The position numbers were made by a program, and so were the translations under genes. Below the pieces are notes generated by a model, which saw only the letters and a list, made by a program, of their open reading frames with translations, ran no database searches and had not been told where the DNA came from. Of a stretch of DNA of 64,000 nucleotides, positions 1 to 60,254 are shown piece by piece. Source of the DNA: an uncultured Clostridia bacterium (GTDB lineage Bacteria > Bacillota > Clostridia > TANB77 > CAG-508); the NCBI GenBank assembly GCA_934120135.1, contig CAKOTK010000003.1, positions 83,691 through 147,690 of the forward strand. Reading direction: 5' to 3'. Every line of letters starts with the position of its first letter. Position 1 is the stretch's first letter.

Positions 1-3000
1 GGTTTTGGTGGCAATCCTTTTTTGATTAAATAAAGCATAATATCGTCTCTACAACCTATTGCCTCACTTAATGTAACAATTCCTTGATTAACAAGTTCTT
101 GTCCATTGTTTAACCATACATCAGTACCATGTGAAAGTCCTGATATACTTATCAATTCATTAAATGTTGTTGGTTTTGTATCAACTAACATTCCTCTTAC
201 GAACTTTGTTCCAAACTCTGGTATACCAAATGTTCCTACCTCTGAATGTATTTGTTCTGGTGTTACACCTAATACTTTTGTTGAACTAAATATTGACATA
301 GTGTCTTTATCATCCAAAGGTACTTTAGTTGGGTCAATTCCTGTCAAATCAAAAAGCATACGAATCATTGTAGGGTCATCATGGCCTAGTATATCTAGTT
401 TTAATAAGTTTTGGTCAATTGAGTGATAATCAAAGTGTGTTGTTATAATATCTGAATTAGGGTCATCTGCTGGATGTTGTACTGGTGTGAATTCATATAT
501 TTCTCTGCCTTTTGGTACAACTATAATTCCACCTGGATGTTGACCAGTTGTCCTTTTAATTCCTGTACATCCTTGTGAAAGTCTTACAACTTCTGCATTA
601 CTAATAGGTATGCCTTTTTCTTCATAATATTTTTTCACATATCCATAAGCAGTTTTGTCAGCTACTGTACCAACTGTACCAGCCTTAAATGTTGTTCCTT
701 TTCCAAATATTACTTCTGTATATCTATGAGCCTTTGCTTGATATTCTCCTGAGAAATTTAAGTCAATATCAGGCTCTTTATCTCCATCAAATCCCAAGAA
801 AGTTTCAAATGGAATATCCATTCCATCTTTTGCTAATTTTTCTCCACAGTTTGGACAAGTCTTATCAGGTAAGTCAAATCCATTTTTTACTCCATAATCT
901 GTAAAATCTGAATATTTACACTTAGGGCATCTATAATGTGGTGGAAGTGAATTTACTTCTGTAATACCTGTCATATTTGCAACAAATGATGAACCAACAG
1001 AACCTCTTGAACCTACTATGTATCCATCTTCATTAGATTTCCATACCAATTTTTGTGCAATAATATACATAACTGAGAACCCGTTTGTAATAATAGAATG
1101 TAATTCCTTATCTAATCTTGCTTGTACTATTTCCGGTAATGGATCTCCATATAATTCATGTGCTTTATTATATGCTATATTTTTTATTGTTTCTTCACAT
1201 CCATCAATGTGTGGTGGACATTTTTCAGGTGAAATTGGGCTTATTTTCTCACACATATCAGATATTTTATTTGTATTAGTTACAACAACTTCATATGCTT
1301 TTTCTTCTCCTAAATAGTCGAATTCTTTTAGCATTTCTTCAGTTGTTCTTAAATATAATGGTGCTTGATCATCTGCGTCATCATATCCTTGTCCAGCCAT
1401 TAAAATTCTACGATAAATTTCGTCTTGTGGATCCATAAAATGAACATCACATGTTGCTACAACTGGCTTTTGTAGTTTTTCACCAAGAGCAACTATTTTA
1501 CGGTTAATATCTTTTAAATCTTCAACGCTTTTTACCGTTTCATTTCTAACCATAAACATATTATTTCCAAGAGGTTGAATTTCTAGATAATCATAATCTG
1601 CTGCTATTTCTTCTATTTCTTCATCTGTTTTACCAGCAATTATGGCTCTATATATTTCTCCTTGCTCACAAGCACTTCCAAGTATTAAACCTTCAGAATA
1701 TTTTTTATATAATGATTTTAATATACGAGGCTTTTTATAAAAATAATGTAGATGTGAAATAGATATCAATTTATATAAATTTCTAAGTCCAACATAATCT
1801 TTTGCCAATATAATAGCATGGTATGTTGGAAGTGATTTATAATCTGCTTTTCCACTTAATTTTTCATCTATATCGTCTAAGGTTTTAACACCTTTTTCTC
1901 TAAGCATATCAAACATTACATTTAATACTTTTACTGTTGTATCAACATCATCTAATGCTCTATGTGCTACATCTACTTTTATTCCTAAGTTTTCTGCAAT
2001 AATTCCTAATTTATATTTTTTATACTGTGGAAATAAATCTTTTGCTAGTCTTAATGTATCTAAATATGTATTTCCTAGTTTTAATCCTAATAATGTGCAG
2101 TTATATTTCAAAAATCCTATATCAAAATCTGCATTATGTGCTACAAGAACACTATCTCCAACAAATTCTATAACTTTTGGTAATATTTCTTCAATTTTAG
2201 GAGCATCTTTTACCATATCGTCAGTAATATTAGTAACTTCTACTACTCTTTGTGGTATTGGTTTTTCTGGGTTTACAAATGTACTAAGTTCATCAATAAC
2301 TTCTCCATTTCTAACCTTCATTATACCAATTTCTGTGATTTTTTCTGTTCTGAATGAGAAACCTGTTGTTTCTAAGTCCAAAACGCAATATGTAGTATCA
2401 TCTAAAAGTTGATTTTTTGAAAATGAAACACATGGTGTTTTATCTGGTGCCAAATATGCTTCAACTCCATATATAACTTTCAAATCAGGGTGGTCTTTTT
2501 CTAGGTATTTGTGTGCATCAGGAAATGCTTGTACAACTCCATGGTCTGTTATAGCTATTGACTTCATTCCCCATTTTACAGCTCGTTTTAATAGGTCTTT
2601 TGCAGCTGTCATACCATCCATCTGGCTCATTTGAGTATGCATATGAAGCTCAACTCTTTTAACTTTTGCTTCATCTTTTCTAACTTCTCTTTTAATTCCA
2701 GTTGATTCAATAATTACATTTGCAATTACTCCTAATTCTTTTGCAAATGGGTCAAATTGTGCAGTTCCATTTACTTTAACTCCACTAGCTGATTTCAACC
2801 TTTTTATTACTGCATCGTGTTTGTCTGCTTCAACAAAAGCTTTACATGTAATTGTACTTGAACCATCATATAAATCAAATGTTACTAAAAATTTACCTGA
2901 TTTCAATTCTCTTGAATCTGTATTTAAAATTTCTCCATCTAATAAAACTTTTCCACTATCAACCGACAAATCTATTACTTTGGATAATTCTTCTTTTATT

Positions 3001-11299: not shown

Positions 11300-11375
11300 T
11301 GGAGCTTCCAGACGGAATCGAACCGTCGACCCCAGCCTTACCATGGCTGTGCTCTACCTACTGAGCTATAGAAGC
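11300..11375 (-). tRNA. tRNA-Thr (anticodon GGU)
   Basis: Minus strand GCTTCTATAGCTCAGTAGGTAGAGCACAGCCATGGTAAGGCTGGGGTCGACGGTTCGATTCCGTCTGGAAGCTCCA: 7-bp acceptor stem, D and T arms (GGTTCGATTCC), anticodon loop AUGGUAA, encoded CCA. Confidence 0.85.
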
Positions 11376-40067: not shown

Positions 40068-41381
40068 TTAGTTTTTAATTACTTCGCAAATTTTCTTTGC
40101 ATCTAGTTCTGTAGGAGTTTCTTCTCCTGTTTCCATATTTTTAACTTTTACTGTATTAGAACTTATTTCGTCTTCTCCAATTACAGCAACATAAGGAATT
40201 TTTAGTTTGTCTGCATATTTAAATTTCGCTTTTAATTTTTTGTCATTTAAATATACTTCTGTATTTATTCCTTCTTTACGCAAATCACTTGCTAATTCAA
40301 TTGATTTTGTCATATCTTCTGTCATTGGTATTATTAAAATATCTGACATAGAATATTTATCTGATTTGATAAGTTGTAATTCATTTAGTTTATAGAATAG
40401 TCTGGTTAGACCAATTGAAATTCCAACACCAGGCAACTTTTTGTCTGTGTAATATTCAGCTAAGTTTTCATATCTTCCTCCTGAACATACACTTCCTAGT
40501 TCTTTATAATCATTTAAAAATGTCTCATATACTGTTCCTGTGTAATAGTCTAATCCTCTAGCAATTGTTAAATCTATTTTAAAGTGAGTATCTGGTACAC
40601 CAAATATTCTAATATATTTTACAACTTGTTTTAGCTCTTCTAAACCTTGTGTAAACATTTCATTTAGAATACCTAGGTTTTCTAATTTACTAATCTTTTC
40701 GTCTGTTGTACCATCAATTTCAATAAAAGTTAATATTCTTTCAATTGCTTGGTCATCAACACCAATTTCTTTTAGTTCTTCTACTACTTTTTCTTTTCCT
40801 ATTTTGGCAAGTTTATCAATAGTTCTCATAATGTCAACTGCATTTTGCTCTTGATTTACTTCTCTAAATAATCCATTTAATACTTTTCTGTTATTTATGC
40901 ATATAGTGAAATCATTGAAGCCTAAATCTGATATTAGGTTATATATAACACTTGGAATTTCTGCGTCATTAACTATTCCAAGTTCTCCATCTCCAATAAT
41001 GTCAATATCGCATTGATAAAATTCACGAAATCTACCTTTTTGAGTTTTTTCTCCTCTATATACTTTACCTATTTGATATCTTCTAAATGGGAAACTTAAA
41101 TTACCATAGTTTTTAGCTACATATTTTGCAAGTGGTACAGTTAAGTCAAATCTCATTGAAATGTCTGTATCTCCTTTTGTGAAGCGGTAAATCTGTTTTT
41201 CAGTTTCTCCACCTGCTTTTGCTAATAGCACTTCTGATAGTTCTAGTATTGGTGTATCTAATGGTAAAAATCCAAATCTTTGGTATGTTTTTTCTATTGT
41301 TTGTTTCATTTGCTCAAATAATATTTGTTCATTTGGCAATAGTTCCATGAAACCAGCCAAAGTTCTTGGTTCTATATTCAT
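40068..41381 (-). CDS. hisS: histidyl-tRNA synthetase
   Basis: 437 aa class IIa aaRS with HisRS motifs and C-terminal anticodon-binding domain. Confidence 0.9.
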   Translation of the reverse strand: MNIEPRTLAGFMELLPNEQILFEQMKQTIEKTYQRFGFLPLDTPILELSEVLLAKAGGETEKQIYRFTKGDTDISMRFDLTVPLAKYVAKNYGNLSFPFRRYQIGKVYRGEKTQKGRFREFYQCDIDIIGDGELGIVNDAEIPSVIYNLISDLGFNDFTICINNRKVLNGLFREVNQEQNAVDIMRTIDKLAKIGKEKVVEELKEIGVDDQAIERILTFIEIDGTTDEKISKLENLGILNEMFTQGLEELKQVVKYIRIFGVPDTHFKIDLTIARGLDYYTGTVYETFLNDYKELGSVCSGGRYENLAEYYTDKKLPGVGISIGLTRLFYKLNELQLIKSDKYSMSDILIIPMTEDMTKSIELASDLRKEGINTEVYLNDKKLKAKFKYADKLKIPYVAVIGEDEISSNTVKVKNMETGEETPTELDAKKICEVIKN

Positions 41382-41438: not shown

Positions 41439-42047
41439 TTAATCATAGTTGATTTGCCATGTCCGTGGATATACTATTGTGTCATCTGGAAGTTTTAATA
41501 TTTTTTCTGTTATTGAATTCATTATATCCATAAAATTACTTGTTGGCAAATCTGTTCTACCCCAAGTTCCATGGAATAAAGTATCTCCTGAAAATACAAG
41601 TTTTTCTTCTTCACAATATAGTGAACTTCCACCTTTTGTATGGCCAGGCGTATGAATTACCCTAAACTCTATATTTCCTATATGTATTTTATCCCCATCA
41701 TCTACTATTGAATCTGGGTCTAAATGTACATCCTCAACTCCAACATAATCTGTTAAACTAATATTTTTATCTTGTAGGCCCTCTTTTTCCAATCTATGAA
41801 TTAATATTTTTCCGCCTTTTGCGTTTTTTAATTCTACTAATGCTCCAATATGGTCTCCATGGCAGTGAGTTATGTATATATATTTTAGTTTTGCTTGTAA
41901 TATATCTAGCATTTCGATAATTTTATTTACTTCTCCACCCGGATCTATAACCATTGTTTCTTTTGTTTTTTCATCTTGAACAATGTAGCAATTTGTTGGC
42001 TCACAAATCGCTCCACTGTTTACTCTCAACTGCTTTAGTATCATCAC
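41439..42047 (-). CDS. MBL-fold metallo-hydrolase
   Basis: 202 aa; THCHGDHIGAL (HxHxDH) metal-binding motif; occupies the usual position upstream of hisS. Confidence 0.7.
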   Translation of the reverse strand: MMILKQLRVNSGAICEPTNCYIVQDEKTKETMVIDPGGEVNKIIEMLDILQAKLKYIYITHCHGDHIGALVELKNAKGGKILIHRLEKEGLQDKNISLTDYVGVEDVHLDPDSIVDDGDKIHIGNIEFRVIHTPGHTKGGSSLYCEEEKLVFSGDTLFHGTWGRTDLPTSNFMDIMNSITEKILKLPDDTIVYPRTWQINYD

Positions 42048-42100
42048 TATTTTTTCCTTTCCGTACTGTTCTTATTGTTTCAATATCCGATTTTGAAAAA

Positions 42101-42213
42101 AATTGGTATATTACTAGGCAAAGTAAATTAAAAAGGCAAGGGCGCAACCTCTTGGTTGTAACCGCGTTTTTAATTCACTTTAACGACGTAAGATGCTAAT
42201 TATTTTCGAAATC
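42101..42213. other. conserved structured intergenic element, copy A (about 110 nt; second copy at 59484-59590)
   Basis: Shares core attNgtatatt..agg.aa.gt..attaaaaag.caagggcgca[5-bp stem]gtaaccgcgtttttaat..acttt.acga...aagatgct.attatttt with copy B. Inner GC hairpin (GCG-CAACC/GGTTG-CGC) nested in a 15-bp A/U-rich outer stem. Confidence 0.6.
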
Positions 42214-42216
42214 GCT

Positions 42217-44415
42217 TTATTTCTTTCTTTTAACTTCATAAACACTATCAACTTTTCTAATCTGTTTAAGTATTTTATTCAACTCTTCAATATTCTCAAC
42301 CTCAACAGTTACTTCTGTAATTGAAATCTTTTCTTTATTCGCTCTTGAAGTTACAGCTAATAGTTTGCTTTTCGTTCCTTCTATTTCTCTAATAATGTCT
42401 GCTAAAAGTCCACTTCTTTCATTTCCATAAACCTCTATATCAACACTATATCTAGTCTTTTCCGCTTCATACCAGTATACATCTATCATTCTGTTTTCTT
42501 CTGATAATAAATTATTTACATTTGCACAATCTTTTCTGTGTACTGATACACCTCTACCTTTTGTAATATATCCAACTATTTCGTCACCAGGAACTGGGTT
42601 ACAGCATTTTGATAATTTTACCAAGCAATTATCTATTCCTTTTACAACAATACCTGTTTTAGTTGCTTTTGGTTTATATGCTCTATCTTTAGAAAGCACC
42701 TCTAACTTTTCTTCTAGGTTTTCAGTTTGATGGTCTTTTCTATATTCTTCTAACATTCTAGCGACAACTTTACCAGCTGAAATAGCACCAAATCCAACAC
42801 TTGCATACATTTCATCTACTTCTGAATATTTGTATCTATCCAAAGCTGCTTGTATGTATTCCGACTTAGCAATTTCAGCATGTGTCATACCTATTTTCTT
42901 TATTTCTTTTTCTATTAAATCTTTACCTTTAACAATGTTTTCTTCTCTATCGTTTTTCTTGTACCAAGCTAAAATCTTATTTTTAGCTGTTGAACTTTTA
43001 ACAAATTTAAGCCAGTCTCTACTAGGTCCTTTTGACTGGTCTGAGGTGATAATTTCAACAATGTCTCCATTTTTTAATTGAGTTACTATTGGCATCATCT
43101 TACTATTTATCTTAGCACCAGTCATATGGTTGCCTATTTCAGCATGGATATAATATGCAAAATCTATTGGTGTACTACCTTTAGGTAAGGCAATAATTTT
43201 TCCCTTTGGAGTAAATACATAAACTTCGTCTTCAAAAAGCTCTGTTTTTAGTGTATTCAAAAACTCGTCTGGGTCTTGCATATCTTTTTGCCACTCTAAT
43301 GTTTCACGAAGCCATGAAAGTTTGTCTTCCTCGACTTTAACATTAGCTTTTTTATTTCCCATAAAGCTAGCCTCTTTATATGCCCAGTGTGCAGCAATAC
43401 CATACTCTGCTATACGGTGCATGTCCCATGTACGAATTTGCACCTCAAATGGTGTTCCTTTTGGTCCAATTAAAGTAGTATGCAAAGACTGATACATATT
43501 AGGCTTTGGCACTGAAATATAGTCTTTAAATCTTCCTGGCATTGGGCTATATAACTCATGTACTATACCTAATACTGCATAACAGTCTTTTATAGAGTTA
43601 ACTATTACCCTTAATGCAAACAAGTCATATACTTGATCTAAGGTAATATTATCTCTTTTCATTTTGCGGTAAATACTATATAAATGTTTTGCTCTTCCTG
43701 TAATTTCTGCTTCAATATGTTGTTTTTTTACTGACTGTTTTATTTGTTCCATAATCATATCAATAAATTGTAAACGTTCTTCTCTTTTACGGTCGATTCC
43801 TTCTACTAGTTCACGATATTCTTCTGGATATAGGTATTTAAAAGCTAAATCCTCTAGCTCCCATTTTAAAGAATACATACCTAAACGGTTTGCAAGTGGT
43901 GCATATAGCTCCATTGTTTCATTTGCATTAGCAATTTGTCTATCACGTGTTAGGAATTTTAATGTTCTCATATTATGAAGCCTATCAGCAAGTTTAATTA
44001 GTATAACTCTTATGTCTTTTCCCATTGCCAAGAACATTTTTCTATAATTTTCTACTTGTTGCTCTTCCATACTAGCATATTGAAGTTTACTAAGTTTAGT
44101 AACTCCATCTACTAGTTCTGCAATTTCTGCCCCAAATTCATTTTCCAAATCTTGTTTTGTAGTTTCTGTATCTTCTACTACATCATGCAAAAGGGCTGCA
44201 CATATTGTACTGTCATCCAAACCTAGAGTTGACAATATGTATGCAACTTGCACTGGGTGAATGATATATGGTTCTCCTGATTTTCTTAATTGCCCTTCGT
44301 GATGCGCCTTTGCATAATTATATACTTTTCTTATAAGTTTACTATCTGATTTTCTATTGTTCTTTTTAGTTGTATTTATTACATCTTCTATTGTCTTTTC
44401 TTGTATTTCTGACAT
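42217..44415 (-). CDS. relA: bifunctional (p)ppGpp synthetase/hydrolase RelA/SpoT homologue
   Basis: 732 aa; HD hydrolase domain, synthetase domain, TGS and ACT domains. Confidence 0.9.
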   Translation of the reverse strand: MSEIQEKTIEDVINTTKKNNRKSDSKLIRKVYNYAKAHHEGQLRKSGEPYIIHPVQVAYILSTLGLDDSTICAALLHDVVEDTETTKQDLENEFGAEIAELVDGVTKLSKLQYASMEEQQVENYRKMFLAMGKDIRVILIKLADRLHNMRTLKFLTRDRQIANANETMELYAPLANRLGMYSLKWELEDLAFKYLYPEEYRELVEGIDRKREERLQFIDMIMEQIKQSVKKQHIEAEITGRAKHLYSIYRKMKRDNITLDQVYDLFALRVIVNSIKDCYAVLGIVHELYSPMPGRFKDYISVPKPNMYQSLHTTLIGPKGTPFEVQIRTWDMHRIAEYGIAAHWAYKEASFMGNKKANVKVEEDKLSWLRETLEWQKDMQDPDEFLNTLKTELFEDEVYVFTPKGKIIALPKGSTPIDFAYYIHAEIGNHMTGAKINSKMMPIVTQLKNGDIVEIITSDQSKGPSRDWLKFVKSSTAKNKILAWYKKNDREENIVKGKDLIEKEIKKIGMTHAEIAKSEYIQAALDRYKYSEVDEMYASVGFGAISAGKVVARMLEEYRKDHQTENLEEKLEVLSKDRAYKPKATKTGIVVKGIDNCLVKLSKCCNPVPGDEIVGYITKGRGVSVHRKDCANVNNLLSEENRMIDVYWYEAEKTRYSVDIEVYGNERSGLLADIIREIEGTKSKLLAVTSRANKEKISITEVTVEVENIEELNKILKQIRKVDSVYEVKRKK

Positions 44416-44431: not shown

Positions 44432-46117
44432 TTAAATAGTTTTTCTTAAATCTTTTAAGTTTACTTGAATATTTTCATTTCCTCCAAATTGATTTACTTC
44501 TAAACTTCCAACAATATCAACTTTATCTCCAATTAAATATTTATCTGCTACTTCTCCCATATTAAATCCGATAGCATCTATCATATAATTGTCAATTCCA
44601 AGTTTCATTTTTATATGTTTTCCTTCAGACAAACTTCTTATTGATAATATTTTTAAGTTTTTAATTAAAAATACTGGCATTTTATTGCCTTCACCATATG
44701 GCTCTAATAGCTTTAATTCATTAACTTCTTGTATGTTTATTTTTTTTATATCTACTTGTTTATCAATTTGTATAATTGGTATTATATCACTAATATGGCT
44801 ATTTTGTGTATATTCTTCAAATTCTTTTTTAAATTTTTCAAAATTTTCTCTTTTAACATTTATGCCTATTGCCATACTATGTCCACCAAATTTTTCTACA
44901 TATGTATCACAATTCATTACAGCATCATGCAAGTTAAATCCTGGAATGCTTCTTCCTGAGCCTTTTCCTTCTTCTCCTTCAAAACAAATTAAAATACTTG
45001 GCTTAAAATATATATCTGTTACTTTTGATGCAACTATTCCAATTATTCCATGATGCCAACCTTCTTGTCCTAAAACAATACAAGATTTATCCTTTTCTCC
45101 ATTTTCAATTTGTTCTAAAGCTTGTTTAAATATTCTTTTTTCTGTTTCTTGTCTTTCTAGGTTATAATTGTTTAATCTTTCTGTTATTTCTTTAGCTTCA
45201 TGTAAGTCATTTGTTAGGAATAATCTTAAAGCTTCTTTTTCTTCTCCCATTCTACCACAAGCATTTATTCTTGGAGCTATACCAAAAGATATTGTAGTAG
45301 AATTTACTTCTTTATATCCTGTAGATGCAAGTAAAGTCCTTAAACCAATATTTTTTGATATTGGTACTAGCTTTAATCCTAATTTAGTAATTACTCTGTT
45401 TTCATCTACTAGTGGTACTATATCTGAAATAGTTCCAACACATACAATATCTAAATATTTTAAATATTCTTTATTATCTAAATTTAATTTAATTGAAATT
45501 GCCTGTATTAGCTTAAATACTACTCCAACACCTGCTAATTGATTAAATGGATATTGATTATCTTTTCTTTTTGCATCTACTACTGCTAAACATTTTGGCA
45601 ATTCTTCTGCTGGTTCATGGTGATCTGTAACTATTACTTCTAGTCCTAATTCTGTTGCATATTTAATCTCTTCTATACATGAAATTCCACAGTCTACGGT
45701 TATTATTAGTTTATACCCTTGTTCTGCAATTTTCTTTACAGCTTCTTTATTTAGTCCATAGCCTTCATTTAATCTATTTGGAATGTACTCTCCAACTTGT
45801 AAATTTCTTTCTTCTAAGAATTTCTTGAGTACAGTAATACTTGTTATTCCATCTACATCATAGTCTCCATATATAATGGTCTTTTCTTGTGTTTGTATTG
45901 CTTTTAAAATTCTATCTACTGCTTTTTCCATATCTGGCATTAGAAATGGATCATGAAAATCATCTCTTGTAGGATTTAAAAATTCTCTTACGTCTTCTTT
46001 TTCAATAATTCCTCTACTTGCTAATATACTACTAATTAAATTACTTAGCCCGTTCTCTTTAAATATTTTATCTATATCATTTTTATTTTCTTTGCATACT
46101 TCCCATTTTTTATTCAT
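44432..46117 (-). CDS. recJ: single-stranded-DNA-specific exonuclease RecJ
   Basis: 561 aa; DHH (IVTDHHEP) and DHHA1 domains; recJ-relA synteny. Confidence 0.9.
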   Translation of the reverse strand: MNKKWEVCKENKNDIDKIFKENGLSNLISSILASRGIIEKEDVREFLNPTRDDFHDPFLMPDMEKAVDRILKAIQTQEKTIIYGDYDVDGITSITVLKKFLEERNLQVGEYIPNRLNEGYGLNKEAVKKIAEQGYKLIITVDCGISCIEEIKYATELGLEVIVTDHHEPAEELPKCLAVVDAKRKDNQYPFNQLAGVGVVFKLIQAISIKLNLDNKEYLKYLDIVCVGTISDIVPLVDENRVITKLGLKLVPISKNIGLRTLLASTGYKEVNSTTISFGIAPRINACGRMGEEKEALRLFLTNDLHEAKEITERLNNYNLERQETEKRIFKQALEQIENGEKDKSCIVLGQEGWHHGIIGIVASKVTDIYFKPSILICFEGEEGKGSGRSIPGFNLHDAVMNCDTYVEKFGGHSMAIGINVKRENFEKFKKEFEEYTQNSHISDIIPIIQIDKQVDIKKINIQEVNELKLLEPYGEGNKMPVFLIKNLKILSIRSLSEGKHIKMKLGIDNYMIDAIGFNMGEVADKYLIGDKVDIVGSLEVNQFGGNENIQVNLKDLRKTI

Positions 46118-58043: not shown

Positions 58044-59402
58044 CTATTTTGTAAATAATAATGGTTTTGTAAGAATAACGTTATATAGCATTATTAAAAC
58101 AATTCCCCAAAACATTGTCATTCCAAAGCTATAAATTGGAATCCAACTTATAAAGCTAAAGATTATTGTTGTAACTGCTATTGGAATTAATATAAATAAG
58201 AATTTAACAAATCCTTGTTTGTAAGTAAATTCTTGCTCTTCTTTTTTCATTCCATTTAATAGGTATACTATAAACGCATAATTTAGAGCTATAGATATTA
58301 AAATTCCAACCATTCCCTCGATTGATACAACTACATTTGTTAATCTAATTATAATTAATAATGAAGCTATATATCCTATAAAGGTAAGTGCTCCTAATAT
58401 TCCCTTTGCTTTATATTTAAAGATTATAAATAATACTGCGATTACTATTAAACTTAATACAATTATTGCTGGTATAAAGAAATTTTCAGTATTAACATCT
58501 GGTAATATATAGCGGTTATCGTCAACAGTATATGCTAATGGTAAGTTTCCTGTATTCAATAATGTTGCTAAGTTATTAGCCTCTTGTACATAATTTCTTA
58601 AATCCTCACCTTTAGAACTTGCTGTTCCAAATGACAATTGTATCATACCATTAGAGATTTCTTCTGAAAAATATGTGCTAAGTACTGTTGTGTCGTCTAT
58701 TTTAATACTAATTTTTTTAGTTGTTTCATTTCCATCTGTATCAGTAGTTTTAATATATGTATTTGAAATATCTTTTAATTTTTGTGTTCCTTCTTTGTTA
58801 AATTGAATTGTTAAGTATACTGATATTCCACTATCTGTGCTGTTATATGCTACTTGTGCTTTTTTTATGTCGCTATTATTCATTAGAACGTTATCTTGTT
58901 CATCAACAATATTAAAAGTTCCTTTAATAGCCATATATTGTAATGCCATATCAGTATTGCTGTTTTCAGGTATTTTTACTATTATATCTCCATTTTGTTC
59001 ATTTTGTTTTATTTCATAATAGTCAATAGCTCTTTTTACATTCAAATTTACATCTACTGCTTTTAAACTATTTAATCTTTCTTCTATTATTTCTTTTGCT
59101 TTTTTATAGTTTTCTTCTGATAATGCTTCTGTTGGATTTACAGGTACTTCTTGTTTAGTAGTTCCTTCTCCTTCTTTCTCTACCACATTACCATCCTTAT
59201 CATAAATAACAGTATTGGTAGCTGTACTTACTACTAGTCCAATATTTCTTGTTCCTGATAAGTTAGCTCCTAATTTAAATTCTGGTAAAATATTTTCTAC
59301 AAATTTAGTCTTTTGTATAAAAATTCCTCCAAATGAGATTAGTACTAATAAAATTATTATTAAAATTATTAGTGTTCTTTTTAGTCCTTTCATTTTTTTC
59401 AT
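58044..59402 (-). CDS. divergent SecD-like membrane protein
   Basis: 452 aa; N-TM + about 270-aa extracytoplasmic domain + 5 TM. Motif echoes of SecD (FKLGANLSG vs LGLDLxGG; ERLNSL; LNTGNLP vs LxSGALP) but highly diverged. Confidence 0.4.
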   Translation of the reverse strand: MKKMKGLKRTLIILIIILLVLISFGGIFIQKTKFVENILPEFKLGANLSGTRNIGLVVSTATNTVIYDKDGNVVEKEGEGTTKQEVPVNPTEALSEENYKKAKEIIEERLNSLKAVDVNLNVKRAIDYYEIKQNEQNGDIIVKIPENSNTDMALQYMAIKGTFNIVDEQDNVLMNNSDIKKAQVAYNSTDSGISVYLTIQFNKEGTQKLKDISNTYIKTTDTDGNETTKKISIKIDDTTVLSTYFSEEISNGMIQLSFGTASSKGEDLRNYVQEANNLATLLNTGNLPLAYTVDDNRYILPDVNTENFFIPAIIVLSLIVIAVLFIIFKYKAKGILGALTFIGYIASLLIIIRLTNVVVSIEGMVGILISIALNYAFIVYLLNGMKKEEQEFTYKQGFVKFLFILIPIAVTTIIFSFISWIPIYSFGMTMFWGIVLIMLYNVILTKPLLFTK

Positions 59403-59429
59403 TTCCTTTCTTTATTTATTTGTTGTTTT

Positions 59430-59590
59430 TAATATGCTTTGATGAATCAAGATGTTAATTATTTTTTTGTAATTTTAAAAATAATTAGTATATTGCGAGG
59501 AAAGGTGCATTAAAAAGTCAAGGGCGCATACGTTTGTATGTAACCGCGTTTTTAATGTACTTTTACGAAACAAGATGCTGATTATTTTTA
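59430..59590. other. conserved structured intergenic element, copy B, with a partial tandem second copy (B2, 59430-59468)
   Basis: Core 59484-59590 matches copy A (42101-42213), including inner hairpin GCG-CATAC/GTATG-CGC and outer A/U stem. The about 35-nt 3' tail motif recurs upstream at 59430-59468. Confidence 0.6.
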
Positions 59591-59594
59591 AAAT

Positions 59595-60254
59595 TTAGAG
59601 TAATTTTGTGTCATTAATAACCAACTCAAACCAAATTCCTAAATACTTAGCTGCATATTTGCTCATCATAGTTCTATCCATAAATATTTCAAAATAGTCT
59701 AGCACTGGAGATATTTTAGTATCAATTGTTAAGTCTAAAGTAACTTTTCTATTTTCTTTATCTATTATAAATTTTGAATCAGTAACTGCATAATTAACTT
59801 TATCATGTTTATCAAATGTAGAAATATTTTTATTTACTACTCTACTACGATGTGCATCAGACTTGTCCGCTAATATTAAAGCAGCTGATATATCACTTAC
59901 CGCAGTTCCAGTTTGTTCATCATGATTTCCTATTGCCATCATTATTTCGGTTCTTTGCTCGACGCTCATTCCCATATCTTTTAATATTTGATATGCAAGT
60001 ATTGCTCCTGTATGAGCATGATCTACTCTGTTAATACAGTTTCCTATATCATGCATATAACCAGCTATTTTAGCAAGTTCTATTCTTTCTTCTGGATAGT
60101 CTAGTGTTTGTAGTAATTCTCCTGCACGCTGTGATACAATACTCATATGTCTTATTGAGTGTTCTGTGTATCCTAAGGCATTTAACTGTTTTTGTGAACT
60201 TAATATTAATTGAGTAAGTTCTTCATTTTTCTTTACATCTTCTAAAGTAATCAA
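59595..60254 (-). CDS. HD-domain metal-dependent phosphohydrolase
   Basis: 219 aa; H…HD (MHDIGN) …H…H…D pattern. Confidence 0.6.
   Translation of the reverse strand: MITLEDVKKNEELTQLILSSQKQLNALGYTEHSIRHMSIVSQRAGELLQTLDYPEERIELAKIAGYMHDIGNCINRVDHAHTGAILAYQILKDMGMSVEQRTEIMMAIGNHDEQTGTAVSDISAALILADKSDAHRSRVVNKNISTFDKHDKVNYAVTDSKFIIDKENRKVTLDLTIDTKISPVLDYFEIFMDRTMMSKYAAKYLGIWFELVINDTKLL

What the first reader, a model, noticed from the sequence alone, without database searches (positions are those of the whole stretch)
42101..42213. About 110-nt structured intergenic element present twice in the window with compensatory base-pair changes (copy A, downstream of relA)
Copy A and copy B (59484-59590) share a long conserved core. 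Both fold into an inner GC hairpin nested inside a roughly 15-bp A/U-rich outer stem. In the inner stem the paired bases differ between copies but remain complementary: CAACC/GGTTG in A versus CATAC/GTATG in B (two compensatory pairs). There is a further compensatory change in the outer stem (A-T versus C-G). Covariation of this kind indicates selection on RNA structure. On the plus strand the inner hairpin is followed directly by GTTTTTAAT (terminator-like), and an upstream TATATT -10-like box is conserved. This is consistent with a small plus-strand sRNA antisense to the flanking minus-strand operons. Alternatively it is a 3'UTR or leader element of relA or the MBL-hisS operon. Copy A occupies the position where dtd normally sits in recJ-relA-dtd-hisS clusters.
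Basis: seen in the sequence. Interest (0 to 1): 0.65.

Follow-up and report, generated by a model that had tools for sequence, protein, structure and literature searches.

The report
Dispersed palindromic hairpin repeat, not sRNA
The two look-alike intergenic hairpins are real and their structure is under selection, but they are two copies of a widespread ~125-base palindromic repeat of uncultured low-GC gut Clostridia that most strains of this species lack at these sites, not a regulator of relA or hisS.

Summary
Copy A (42089-42215) and copy B (59471-59597) are 80% identical.

They are not a local regulatory RNA. The same element occurs in more than 230 places in animal-gut Clostridia assemblies, several copies per genome. 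It sits between unrelated housekeeping genes such as groES|groEL, pheS|pheT and mnmG|rsmG. Across 102 copies, 36 of 45 stem pairs show two-sided compensatory changes.

Three different apical modules sit on identical arms. The feature shared by every variant seen is an asymmetric internal loop (5' YGTY / 3' KCCTWG).

The window's + strand, antisense to the genes, folds about 14 kcal/mol better in 101 of 102 copies. Between co-directional genes the orientation is 134:6.

In the window's own species, most sampled strains with identical flanking proteins lack the full element at both loci and keep only fragments of it.

There is no Rfam match, no consistent promoter or terminator, no target-site duplication, and no transposase nearby.

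Best reading: a new family of REP/ERIC/Correia-like palindromic repeats that spreads through a single-stranded hairpin. How it moves, and any effect on the mRNAs that carry it, remain inferred.

The parts
42089..42215 (-). Copy A, the full element. The family 'sense' orientation is the window - strand, co-directional with relA and MBL-hisS. It starts 2 nt after the relA stop codon (42217-42219) and ends 44 nt before the MBL ATG (42044).
   Evidence: Covariance model match, 105.8 bits, model positions 1-129. Sequence. Gene identities.
42188..42212 (-). Copy A, 5' strand of the outer stem P1 (ATTTCGAAAATAATTAGCATCTTAC).
   Evidence: Alignment to the model. Family pair counts.
42182..42187 (-). 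Copy A, 5' side of the conserved asymmetric internal loop (GTCGTT; with the preceding C it reads CGTC).
   Evidence: G and T are at least 90% conserved in 102 copies. The loop is kept with all three apical module types.
42167..42181 (-). Copy A, 5' strand of the A/U-rich middle stem P2.
   Evidence: 13 of 15 P2 pairs show two-sided changes in the family.
42135..42166 (-). Copy A, type I apical module: CGCGGTTAC, 5-bp hairpin P3 (CAACC AAGA GGTTG), CGCCCTTGCC.
   Evidence: P3 covaries in 4 of 5 pairs. The module is replaceable by types II and III on the same arms.
42120..42134 (-). Copy A, 3' strand of P2.
42115..42119 (-). Copy A, 3' side of the internal loop (GCCTA; family consensus KCCTW followed by G).
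   Evidence: C, C, T at least 90% conserved and the following G invariant.
42090..42114 (-). Copy A, 3' strand of P1.
   Evidence: The last ~15 nt (ATTCTTTTCAAAAT in relatives) are all that remains in strains lacking the element.
59471..59597 (-). Copy B, the full element, same architecture and length as A. It starts directly after the stop codon of the HD-domain gene (59595-60254). Sub-parts: P1 59570-59594 with 59472-59496; loop 59564-59569 with 59497-59501; P2 59549-59563 with 59502-59516; apical module 59517-59548.
   Evidence: Covariance model match, 105.5 bits. Sequence. Gene identities.
59425..59466 (-). 3'-truncated second copy next to B. It keeps only the 5' half (AAAAATAATTAACATCTTGATTCATCAAAGCATATTAAAAAC) and breaks off where the apical module would begin, just before the RBS of the secD-like gene.
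   Evidence: 83% match to copy B's 5' half. Alignment gap. The same layout, a complete copy plus a truncated copy before an RBS, occurs in L055, L071, L148, L201 and L208.

Best explanation
The family is the same kind of thing as ERIC, Correia, REP/REPIN and RUP elements.

Anatomy (shown):
- A 25-bp A/T-rich outer stem with fixed mismatches and one bulge.
- A conserved asymmetric internal loop (5' YGTY / 3' KCCTWG on the gene-sense strand).
- A 15-bp stem.
- An exchangeable apical module.

Behaviour (shown):
- Copies are more alike within a genome than between genomes.
- They are gained, truncated and lost.
- They are dispensable at both window loci.

Mechanism (inferred): the element multiplies through a single-stranded hairpin intermediate formed by the strand that is the window's + strand. 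This intermediate is most likely DNA. An enzyme encoded elsewhere probably recognises it at the conserved internal loop. Selection on that intermediate would produce the covariation.

Orientation (inferred): resident copies are co-transcribed inside operons in the orientation that puts the weaker-folding strand into the mRNA. Either the other orientation is selected against, or insertion is coupled to the replication strand. Any effect on neighbouring genes, such as mRNA processing, stability or ribosome stalling just after the stop codon, would be a by-product and was not tested.
For: Copy number and distribution:
- 114 core-anchored copies (116 loci, five of them chance hits in GC-rich genomes) in species-representative genomes, nearly all gut Clostridia assemblies.
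- 121 more copies in metagenomes, found from the arms alone.
- Neighbours are unrelated housekeeping genes: 131 and 134 Pfam families among 91 downstream and 96 upstream genes. No transposase was among the families listed.

Structure:
- 36 of 45 pairs have two-sided changes and 89.8% of cells are paired. No shuffle out of 500 reaches this. Slid controls pair 28-52%.

Strand asymmetry:
- A.C/C.A mismatches outnumber G.T/T.G 207 to 35.
- The antisense strand is more stable in 101/102 copies with RNA parameters and 102/102 with DNA parameters.
- The asymmetry holds whatever the orientation of the neighbouring genes.

Orientation:
- 134 to 6 between co-directional gene pairs.
- The upstream gene is co-oriented in 97/105 copies and, in the independent sample, 101/111.

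Modularity and decay:
- Three apical modules sit on identical arms. The core shows GC-to-AT decay, and truncated and mini versions exist.

Within-genome similarity:
- 0.86-0.96 identity within genomes against 0.79 overall.

Polymorphism in the window's own species:
- The full element at locus A is in L120 and one unshown similar place, among the 24 contigs read that carry the identical MBL protein. At locus B it is in L139 only, among 24 contigs carrying the identical HD protein. The other alleles keep fragments of the 3' arm.
Against: - No target-site duplication and no TA termini.
- No autonomous partner or transposase in about 380 fetched loci.
- The polymorphisms seen at A and B look like deletions, not fresh insertions.
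- Some sites are occupied in five or more species, for example downstream of rpoD in L027, L044, L077, L086 and L104. That fits long retention, and possibly usefulness.
- The strand that folds best is the leading-strand template here. IS200/IS605-type single-strand transposons use the lagging-strand template instead (abstract of PMC6006769).
- No expression data could be consulted.
Confidence: 0.6

Rival explanations
1. A host-serving cis-acting RNA element within polycistronic mRNAs. The hairpin just after the stop codon would set relative expression of neighbouring cistrons through a processing site, a 3' stabiliser of the upstream segment, or ribosome stalling. ERIC and REP are reported to act this way.
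For: - The element starts within -13 to +5 nt of the upstream stop codon in about 65% of co-oriented cases. 22 upstream genes end on the element's own TGA or TAA.
- Orientation is 134:6 in operons.
- It lies inside tightly linked operons such as groES|groEL and pheS|pheT.
- Some sites are occupied across several species.
- ERIC is co-transcribed and alters mRNA stability in an orientation-dependent way (PMC2229807).
Against: - Most strains of the window's species do without it at both loci.
- The strand present in the mRNA is the poorer folder by about 14 kcal/mol, and that asymmetry does not depend on transcription direction.
- The genes served share no function.
- Apical modules are swapped and decay.
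- The position next to the stop codon is also expected simply because the downstream RBS must stay intact in very short spacers.
Confidence: 0.2
2. One reading: each copy is a small RNA gene on the + strand, antisense to the operons, with its own promoter (TATATT) and terminator (hairpin plus GTTTTTAAT).
For: - The + strand folds far better, with G.U pairs where the other strand has A.C.
- Copy A has TGGTATATT, an extended -10-like string.
- On that strand the apical GC hairpin is followed by a short T run.
Against: - No + strand promoter is found at A, and B has only a chance-level 9/12 match. No terminator-like site is found on either strand.
- TATATT is one strand of P1. In the main subfamily it is replaced by AATTTT, which has no -10 character.
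- The T run is paired to an A run in P2.
- Apical modules II and III have different sequences.
- Copies are truncated or absent in most strains.
Confidence: 0.1
3. A DNA-level site not tied to mobility: a folded single-strand recombination site like an integron attC, or a binding or structural site for a chromosome-organising protein.
For: - Fixed mismatches and a bulged base mark one strand, as extrahelical bases do in attC sites (my own knowledge).
- Strong orientation bias.
- The internal loop is the most conserved part.
Against: - The ends read GTTG...CAAC, not RYYYAAC...GTTRRRY (by inspection).
- Neighbours are core operons, not cassettes.
- No integrase was found nearby.
- Copies are dispensable and decay.
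Confidence: 0.05

Closest known systems
ERIC / IRU elements of enterobacteria (127-bp imperfect palindromes)
   Same: - Same size and a single long imperfect hairpin.
- Intergenic within transcribed operons.
- High sequence conservation between species.
- Co-transcription with orientation-dependent effects is reported for ERIC (PMC2229807).
- Size variants with internal insertions (for ERIC this rests on my own knowledge).
   Different: - No sequence similarity: no match in 5,426 E. coli genomes.
- No TA termini or target duplication.
- 25-bp arms versus about 7 contiguous pairs.
- Exchangeable apical modules.
- Strong single-strand folding asymmetry.
- A different phylum.
Correia / NEMIS elements of Neisseria
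   Same: - Arms of about 24-26 bp.
- Two size classes that differ by a ~50-bp internal segment (PMC2229807). Here a ~50-nt hairpin is present or absent between orthologous copies.
- Transcripts form long stem-loops.
   Different: Correia elements have TA duplication, an IHF site and promoter motifs. None of these was found here.
REP / REPIN elements, especially CGTC-tagged REPs (Di Nocera et al. 2013, PMC3733652)
   Same: - No target duplication and no transposase of their own.
- An unpaired CGTC or TGTC tag 5' of a stem that begins with A-T pairs, and a CC-containing 3' tail. Here the loop reads CGTC|AA...TT|xCC.
- Mostly downstream of genes, between co-directional or convergent ORFs.
- REPINs are also hairpin-forming units about 100 nt long (PMC3116915).
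   Different: - REP stems are 8-9 bp and the units 20-40 bp; here the tagged palindrome is about 65 nt, A/T-rich, and enclosed by a further 25-bp stem.
- CGTC REPs were reported in five phyla, none of them Firmicutes.
- No RAYT gene is seen beside any copy.
RUP / BOX / SPRITE repeats of Streptococcus pneumoniae
   Same: Small non-coding interspersed repeats of a Gram-positive host. They are A/T-rich and about 107 bp (RUP).
   Different: RUP shares its ends with IS630-Spn1 and inserts at TA. No parent insertion sequence or TA target was found here.

Membership tests
Bacterial MITE (as summarised in PMC2229807) | Small (<200 bp), non-coding, multi-copy | tested here: met
   About 125 bp. The apical loop varies between 4 and 7 nt, so no reading frame is kept. 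More than 230 copies were found.
Bacterial MITE (as summarised in PMC2229807) | Terminal inverted repeats | tested here: met
   25-bp arms. 34 arm positions are exact in 52 of 114 core-anchored copies.
Bacterial MITE (as summarised in PMC2229807) | Target-site duplication and 5'-TA-3' termini | tested here: not met
   The longest shared flank words match the shuffled-pair control, apart from one locus (L080, 16 nt). Flanking dinucleotides are identical in only 18 of 124 copies, and there is no TA pattern.
Bacterial MITE (as summarised in PMC2229807) | A parent insertion sequence with the same ends | tested here: inconclusive
   No pair of arms encloses a transposase in about 380 loci. Solo arms flank ordinary genes. 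Whole genomes could not be scanned.
Bacterial MITE (as summarised in PMC2229807) | Filled and empty sites between strains | tested here: inconclusive
   Presence/absence was seen at both window loci. However, the 'empty' alleles retain pieces of the element, so these events are deletions.
REP / CGTC-tagged REP (PMC3733652) | Unpaired CGTC (or TGTC) tag, stem starting with A-T pairs, short CC-containing tail | tested here: met
   The loop reads (T/G)RCGTC or TGTC, then AA...TT, then (T/G)CCT. Compared with the description read.
REP / CGTC-tagged REP (PMC3733652) | 20-40-bp unit with an 8-9-bp stem and a 4-5-nt loop | tested here: not met
   The tagged palindrome is about 65 nt with a 15-bp stem plus an apical module, nested inside a further 25-bp stem.
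REPIN | Associated single-copy RAYT (Y1 transposase) gene flanked by the repeats | not testable with these tools
   Only 8-15-kb pieces around copies could be read, and none holds such a gene. The scan of species genomes was already used.
ERIC / IRU | Sequence homology to the ERIC consensus | tested here: not met
   No blastn match of the family consensus in any complete E. coli genome.
Any Rfam 15 family (including T-box, expected upstream of hisS) | Covariance-model score at or above the gathering threshold | tested here: not met
   The only hit in the window is a tRNA. At E up to 10, only chance matches to plant microRNA hairpins appear.
Intrinsic terminator | G+C-rich stem immediately followed by a T run | tested here: not met
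   No terminator-like site on either strand at A or B.
Integron attC site | RYYYAAC ... GTTRRRY ends, cassette array, integrase nearby | tested here: not met
   The ends are GTTG...CAAC in the opposite arrangement. The neighbours are core operons.

The most novel reading that the evidence does not exclude
The element is a strand-specific folded nucleic acid whose working form is the window's + strand, either single-stranded DNA or an antisense RNA. An as yet unidentified enzyme reads it at the conserved asymmetric loop (CWAGGM ... RACR on that strand). That would make it a Firmicutes branch of the CGTC-tagged REP world with a new, much larger, modular architecture. Part of the family may have been co-opted to punctuate operons directly after stop codons.
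Probability: 0.2. Interest if true: 0.65.

Novelty: new member of a known kind. Interest (0 to 1): 0.4.

Why it matters
Covariation is usually taken to mark a functional RNA. Here it marks a repeat family, so scans for structured RNAs in gut Clostridia will keep flagging these copies unless the family is filed.

The family itself is unrecorded: it has no Rfam, plasmid, phage or E. coli match. It is abundant in very small (~1.2-Mb contigs), uncultured gut genomes, where 125-bp inserts inside essential operons are unexpected.

Three features give handles on how palindromic repeats that have no transposase of their own spread:
- the intrinsic strand asymmetry;
- the 134:6 orientation rule;
- the exchangeable apical modules on constant arms.

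The filled, truncated and empty alleles are also usable strain markers.

Tried and rejected
- T-box or other riboswitch upstream of hisS: no Rfam hit, and the downstream genes are unrelated.
- Small peptide gene: the apical loop length varies, so no frame is preserved.
- + strand sRNA promoter and terminator: not found beyond chance.
- 'Invariant GC core' as a ligand or protein site: this was an artefact of how I searched. When copies are found by their arms, only 38 of 121 keep the exact core, and two other modules replace it.
- Target-site duplication and TA ends: absent.
- Transposase, RAYT or integrase next to copies, or between inverted copies or solo arms: only housekeeping genes.
- Phage or plasmid origin: no match in IMG/VR, INPHARED or PLSDB.
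- In-place weakening of the mRNA-strand hairpin as the cause of the strand asymmetry: rejected, because the asymmetry is the same in the six reversed copies and next to divergent genes.
- Mutation bias as the cause: cytosine deamination on the leading or sense strand would give G.T, not the observed A.C, on that strand (inference).
- Literature search by sequence string and by keywords: nothing on this family.
- Exact look-up of the secD-like protein: not on record.

Full report
**1. What is in the window**

The region is 28.6% G+C, and all nearby genes lie on the minus strand.
- Around copy A: recJ (44432-46117), relA (42217-44415), an MBL-fold hydrolase (41439-42047), hisS (40068-41381) and spoIIP.
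- Around copy B: an HD-domain gene (59595-60254) and a secD-like gene (58044-59402).

Copy A fills the relA|MBL spacer and copy B fills the HD|secD spacer. They are 80% identical over 117 nt. The shared core pattern occurs exactly twice, against 0.00 expected by chance.

A covariance model built later from the family places the copies at 42089-42215 and 59471-59597 and finds no third copy in the window.

Each copy is one long hairpin, not a small hairpin with flanks. The terminal ~25 nt on each side also pair.

**2. It is a dispersed family**

Apart from five chance hits in GC-rich genomes, all are uncultured Clostridia from human, rabbit, chicken, mouse and ruminant guts. Examples are Clostridium sp. 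CAG:245, 28_12 and 26_21. Single assemblies hold at least 8 copies.

The consensus on the gene-sense strand is:

GGTTGAAAAATAATTACAATTTTGGC / TGCGTC / AAATTTCATTTAAAA / CGCGGTTAC-ATAC-loop-GTAT-GCGCCCTTGCC / TTTTAAATAAAATTT / TCCTT / GCCAAAATTTAATTCTTTTCCAACC

The window's copies belong to a minority subfamily with different arms (AATAATCAGCATCTTGCGTCGTT ... GCCTAGCAATATACTAATT), as in L036, L068, L091 and L115.

Nothing in Rfam 15 matches, even at E up to 10. There is also no match in viral contigs, phages, plasmids or E. coli genomes.

**3. Structure and covariation**

On 102 distinct copies (alignment A3) I scored a hand-drawn structure of three stems: P1 (25 pairs), P2 (15 pairs) and P3 (5 pairs). 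Results:
- 89.8% of cells are paired.
- 36 of 45 pairs have changes on both sides, in 388 cells.
- None of 500 shuffles reaches any of the measures.
- Sliding the partner by 1-3 columns drops pairing to 28-52%.

Covariation reaches the outermost pairs (GGTTG/CAACC, GATTG/CAATC, GTTTG/CAAAC). One copy, L015, changes three neighbouring pairs together (GGCTCAAG/CTCGAGCC) while keeping the fixed A.C mismatch.

So the hairpin is under selection. One caveat applies. Copies within a genome share the same compensated variants. Identity is 0.86-0.96 within genomes against 0.79 overall. Much of the covariation therefore lies between subfamilies. It need not have arisen in place at a given site.

**4. 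Which strand folds**

The mismatches in the stems are strongly one-sided. On the gene-sense strand there are 207 A.C/C.A against 35 G.T/T.G, plus fixed U.C and C.U mismatches and a bulged C. On the opposite strand these become G.U, G.A and A.G, and a bulged G.

Energies agree:
- The antisense strand is more stable in 101 of 102 copies with RNA parameters (mean -44.9 against -31.0 kcal/mol) and in 102 of 102 with DNA parameters.
- For the window copies the + strand gives -43.3 and -44.5 kcal/mol (z -7.7 and -9.0). The - strand gives -30.3 and -22.1 kcal/mol.
- The arms-anchored metagenome sample gives 101 of 104.

The asymmetry does not depend on the neighbours. It holds for copies between co-directional genes, for the six reversed copies, and for those next to divergent or convergent genes. 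It is therefore a property of the element, not something that accumulated in the mRNA.

The window's + strand has strongly negative GC skew. I therefore infer that the minus strand is the leading strand and that the well-folding strand is the leading-strand template.

**5. Context**

- Between co-directional gene pairs the orientation is 134 to 6.
- The upstream gene is co-oriented in 97 of 105 copies, and in 101 of 111 in the independent sample.
- The element begins within -13 to +5 nt of the upstream stop codon in about two thirds of co-oriented cases. 22 upstream genes use the element's own TGA or TAA.
- Neighbours are unrelated housekeeping genes, often halves of tight operons: mnmG|rsmG, groES|groEL, pheS|pheT, priA|def, rplW and rpoD. 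There are 131 and 134 Pfam families among 91 downstream and 96 upstream genes, and no transposase was among the families listed.

This rules out a regulon-type riboswitch or leader. It also shows that the element is read through as part of operon mRNAs in the weak-folding orientation.

**6. Modularity, and a correction of my own bias**

The 'invariant' GC-rich core in the first sample came from the search pattern itself. I repeated the search in metagenomes using only the arms. Of 121 copies, 38 kept the exact core.

The arms carry three different apical modules:
- Type I: ACGCGGTTAC..GCGCCCTTGCC (85 copies).
- Type II: ATCAACGTAC..GTACGCCTCAT (25 copies).
- Type III: ATGCTCAC..GCTCCGC (11 copies).

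Type I cores often show CG-to-TG/CA decay. One core pair covaries (G to A together with C to T). Per site, the arms are at least as conserved as the core: 52 of 114 copies are exact over 34 nt, against 38 of 121 exact over 20 nt.

The feature kept in every variant, including distant ones found by the model, is the asymmetric internal loop, 5' YGTY / 3' KCCTWG.

**7. Rearranged copies**

- Decayed copies, arm-only minis, solo arms and tandem arrays occur.
- One layout recurs: a complete copy, 15-25 nt of spacer, then a second copy truncated at its 3' side just before the next gene's RBS. It occurs at window copy B (59425-59466) and in L055, L071, L148, L201 and L208.
- A ~50-nt extra hairpin (CTGAGGCTGTAAC...TTAACAGCCTCAG) sits at the same point of the 3' loop in four loci. 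It is absent from the orthologous copy in three related species pairs: L010/L028, L054/L067 and L066/L018.

**8. Polymorphism in the window's own species**

Locus A. The MBL protein is found with identical sequence in 4,901 index blocks. In the 24 longest contigs read, the relA|MBL spacer comes in three lengths:
- 48 nt in most contigs.
- 57 nt in one (L125).
- 171 nt, carrying the element, in L120 and one similar place.

The short alleles keep ATTCTTTTCAAAAT, the last ~15 nt of the element's 3' arm, directly after the stop codon. L120 and the window differ at several arm positions and in the relA codons, so the insertion is old.

Locus B. Most strains with the identical HD protein have a 111-nt spacer. 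It holds only the 3' 38 nt of the element plus the adjacent truncated copy. The full element is in L139 and in window-like strains. The missing 90 nt are bounded by TAA on both sides.

Both loci therefore show loss by deletion. The full element is dispensable at both sites.

**9. Mobility signatures that are missing**

- There is no target-site duplication beyond one locus (L080, 16 nt), and no TA ends.
- No arms enclose a transposase, and the genes near inverted copies or solo arms are ordinary.

In this respect the family resembles REP-type elements more than classical MITEs.

The loop fits the published description of CGTC-tagged REPs. These have an unpaired CGTC or TGTC, a stem that begins with A-T pairs, a CC-containing tail, no transposase of their own, and a position mostly downstream of genes (PMC3733652). 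However, the unit here is three times larger, A/T-rich, and wrapped in a second stem, and those REPs were not reported from Firmicutes. I treat this resemblance as a lead only.

**10. Conclusion**

Its main claim is wrong. This is neither an sRNA gene nor a relA/hisS element.

The best-supported account is a new family of palindromic interspersed repeats of the ERIC/Correia/REP kind (PMC2229807; PMC3116915).
- Shown: the copy number, architecture, covariation, strand asymmetry, orientation rule, modularity, and loss alleles.
- Inferred: propagation through a single-stranded hairpin of the + strand recognised at the conserved loop, and the reason for the orientation rule.
- Not tested: expression, effects on neighbouring genes, and the mobilising enzyme.

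Noticed in passing
L018 2715-2840, L028 3235-3410, L067 679-805, L084 3171-3345 (related loci): A ~50-nt extra hairpin (…CTGAGGCTGTAAC…TTAACAGCCTCAGTG…) is inserted at the same point of the element's 3' internal loop. Orthologous copies in related species (L066, L010, L054) lack it. It looks like a small mobile hairpin that targets this element.
   Followed up: partly
window 59425-59466; also L055 ~2639, L071 ~6016, L148 ~3962, L201 ~10486, L208 ~4940: A recurrent layout: a complete element, 15-25 nt of spacer, then a second copy cut off at varying points of its 3' side just before the RBS of the next gene. The 3' arm of the first copy and the 5' arm of the second can pair as an alternative hairpin.
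   Followed up: partly
L117-L126 around 2950-3000; L133-L142 around 1860-1972: In both window loci the deletion alleles begin exactly at the upstream stop codon, which is the element's 5' end, and stop at different internal points. One breakpoint therefore coincides with the element terminus.
   Followed up: partly
L080 1730-1925: One copy is flanked by a 16-nt direct repeat (AAAGGAAGGACAGTAA) that includes the RBS of the downstream gene. No other copy shows such a duplication.
   Followed up: partly
L246 1060-1500: A tandem array of three ~135-nt units. Units 2 and 3 lack the 5' arm.
   Followed up: no
L017 2152-2267; L157 2451-2495; L080 949-1012: A decayed copy whose stems are intact but whose GC core has mutated to A/T, and two 'mini' copies made of the two arms with only a few bases between them.
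   Followed up: no
Several loci, e.g. distances -6 and -13: Upstream genes often end on the TGA or TAA inside the element's first 13 nt. Insertion has therefore replaced the last codons or the stop codon of those genes.
   Followed up: partly
window 41439-42047: The MBL-fold protein between relA and hisS also carries a precomputed Pfam hit to PF23023 (Anti-Pycsar_Apyc1) in the collection's annotation. It is identical in thousands of gut assemblies.
   Followed up: no
window 11303-11375 (-): A tRNA gene, the only Rfam match in the window.
   Followed up: no
Many subfamily-1 copies, e.g. L013, L035, L009 3' flanks: A conserved stretch follows the element (…ATTTGTGCCTTGAGAAAGGAATG). In it CCTT can pair with the AAGG of the downstream RBS across a GAGA loop.
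   Followed up: no
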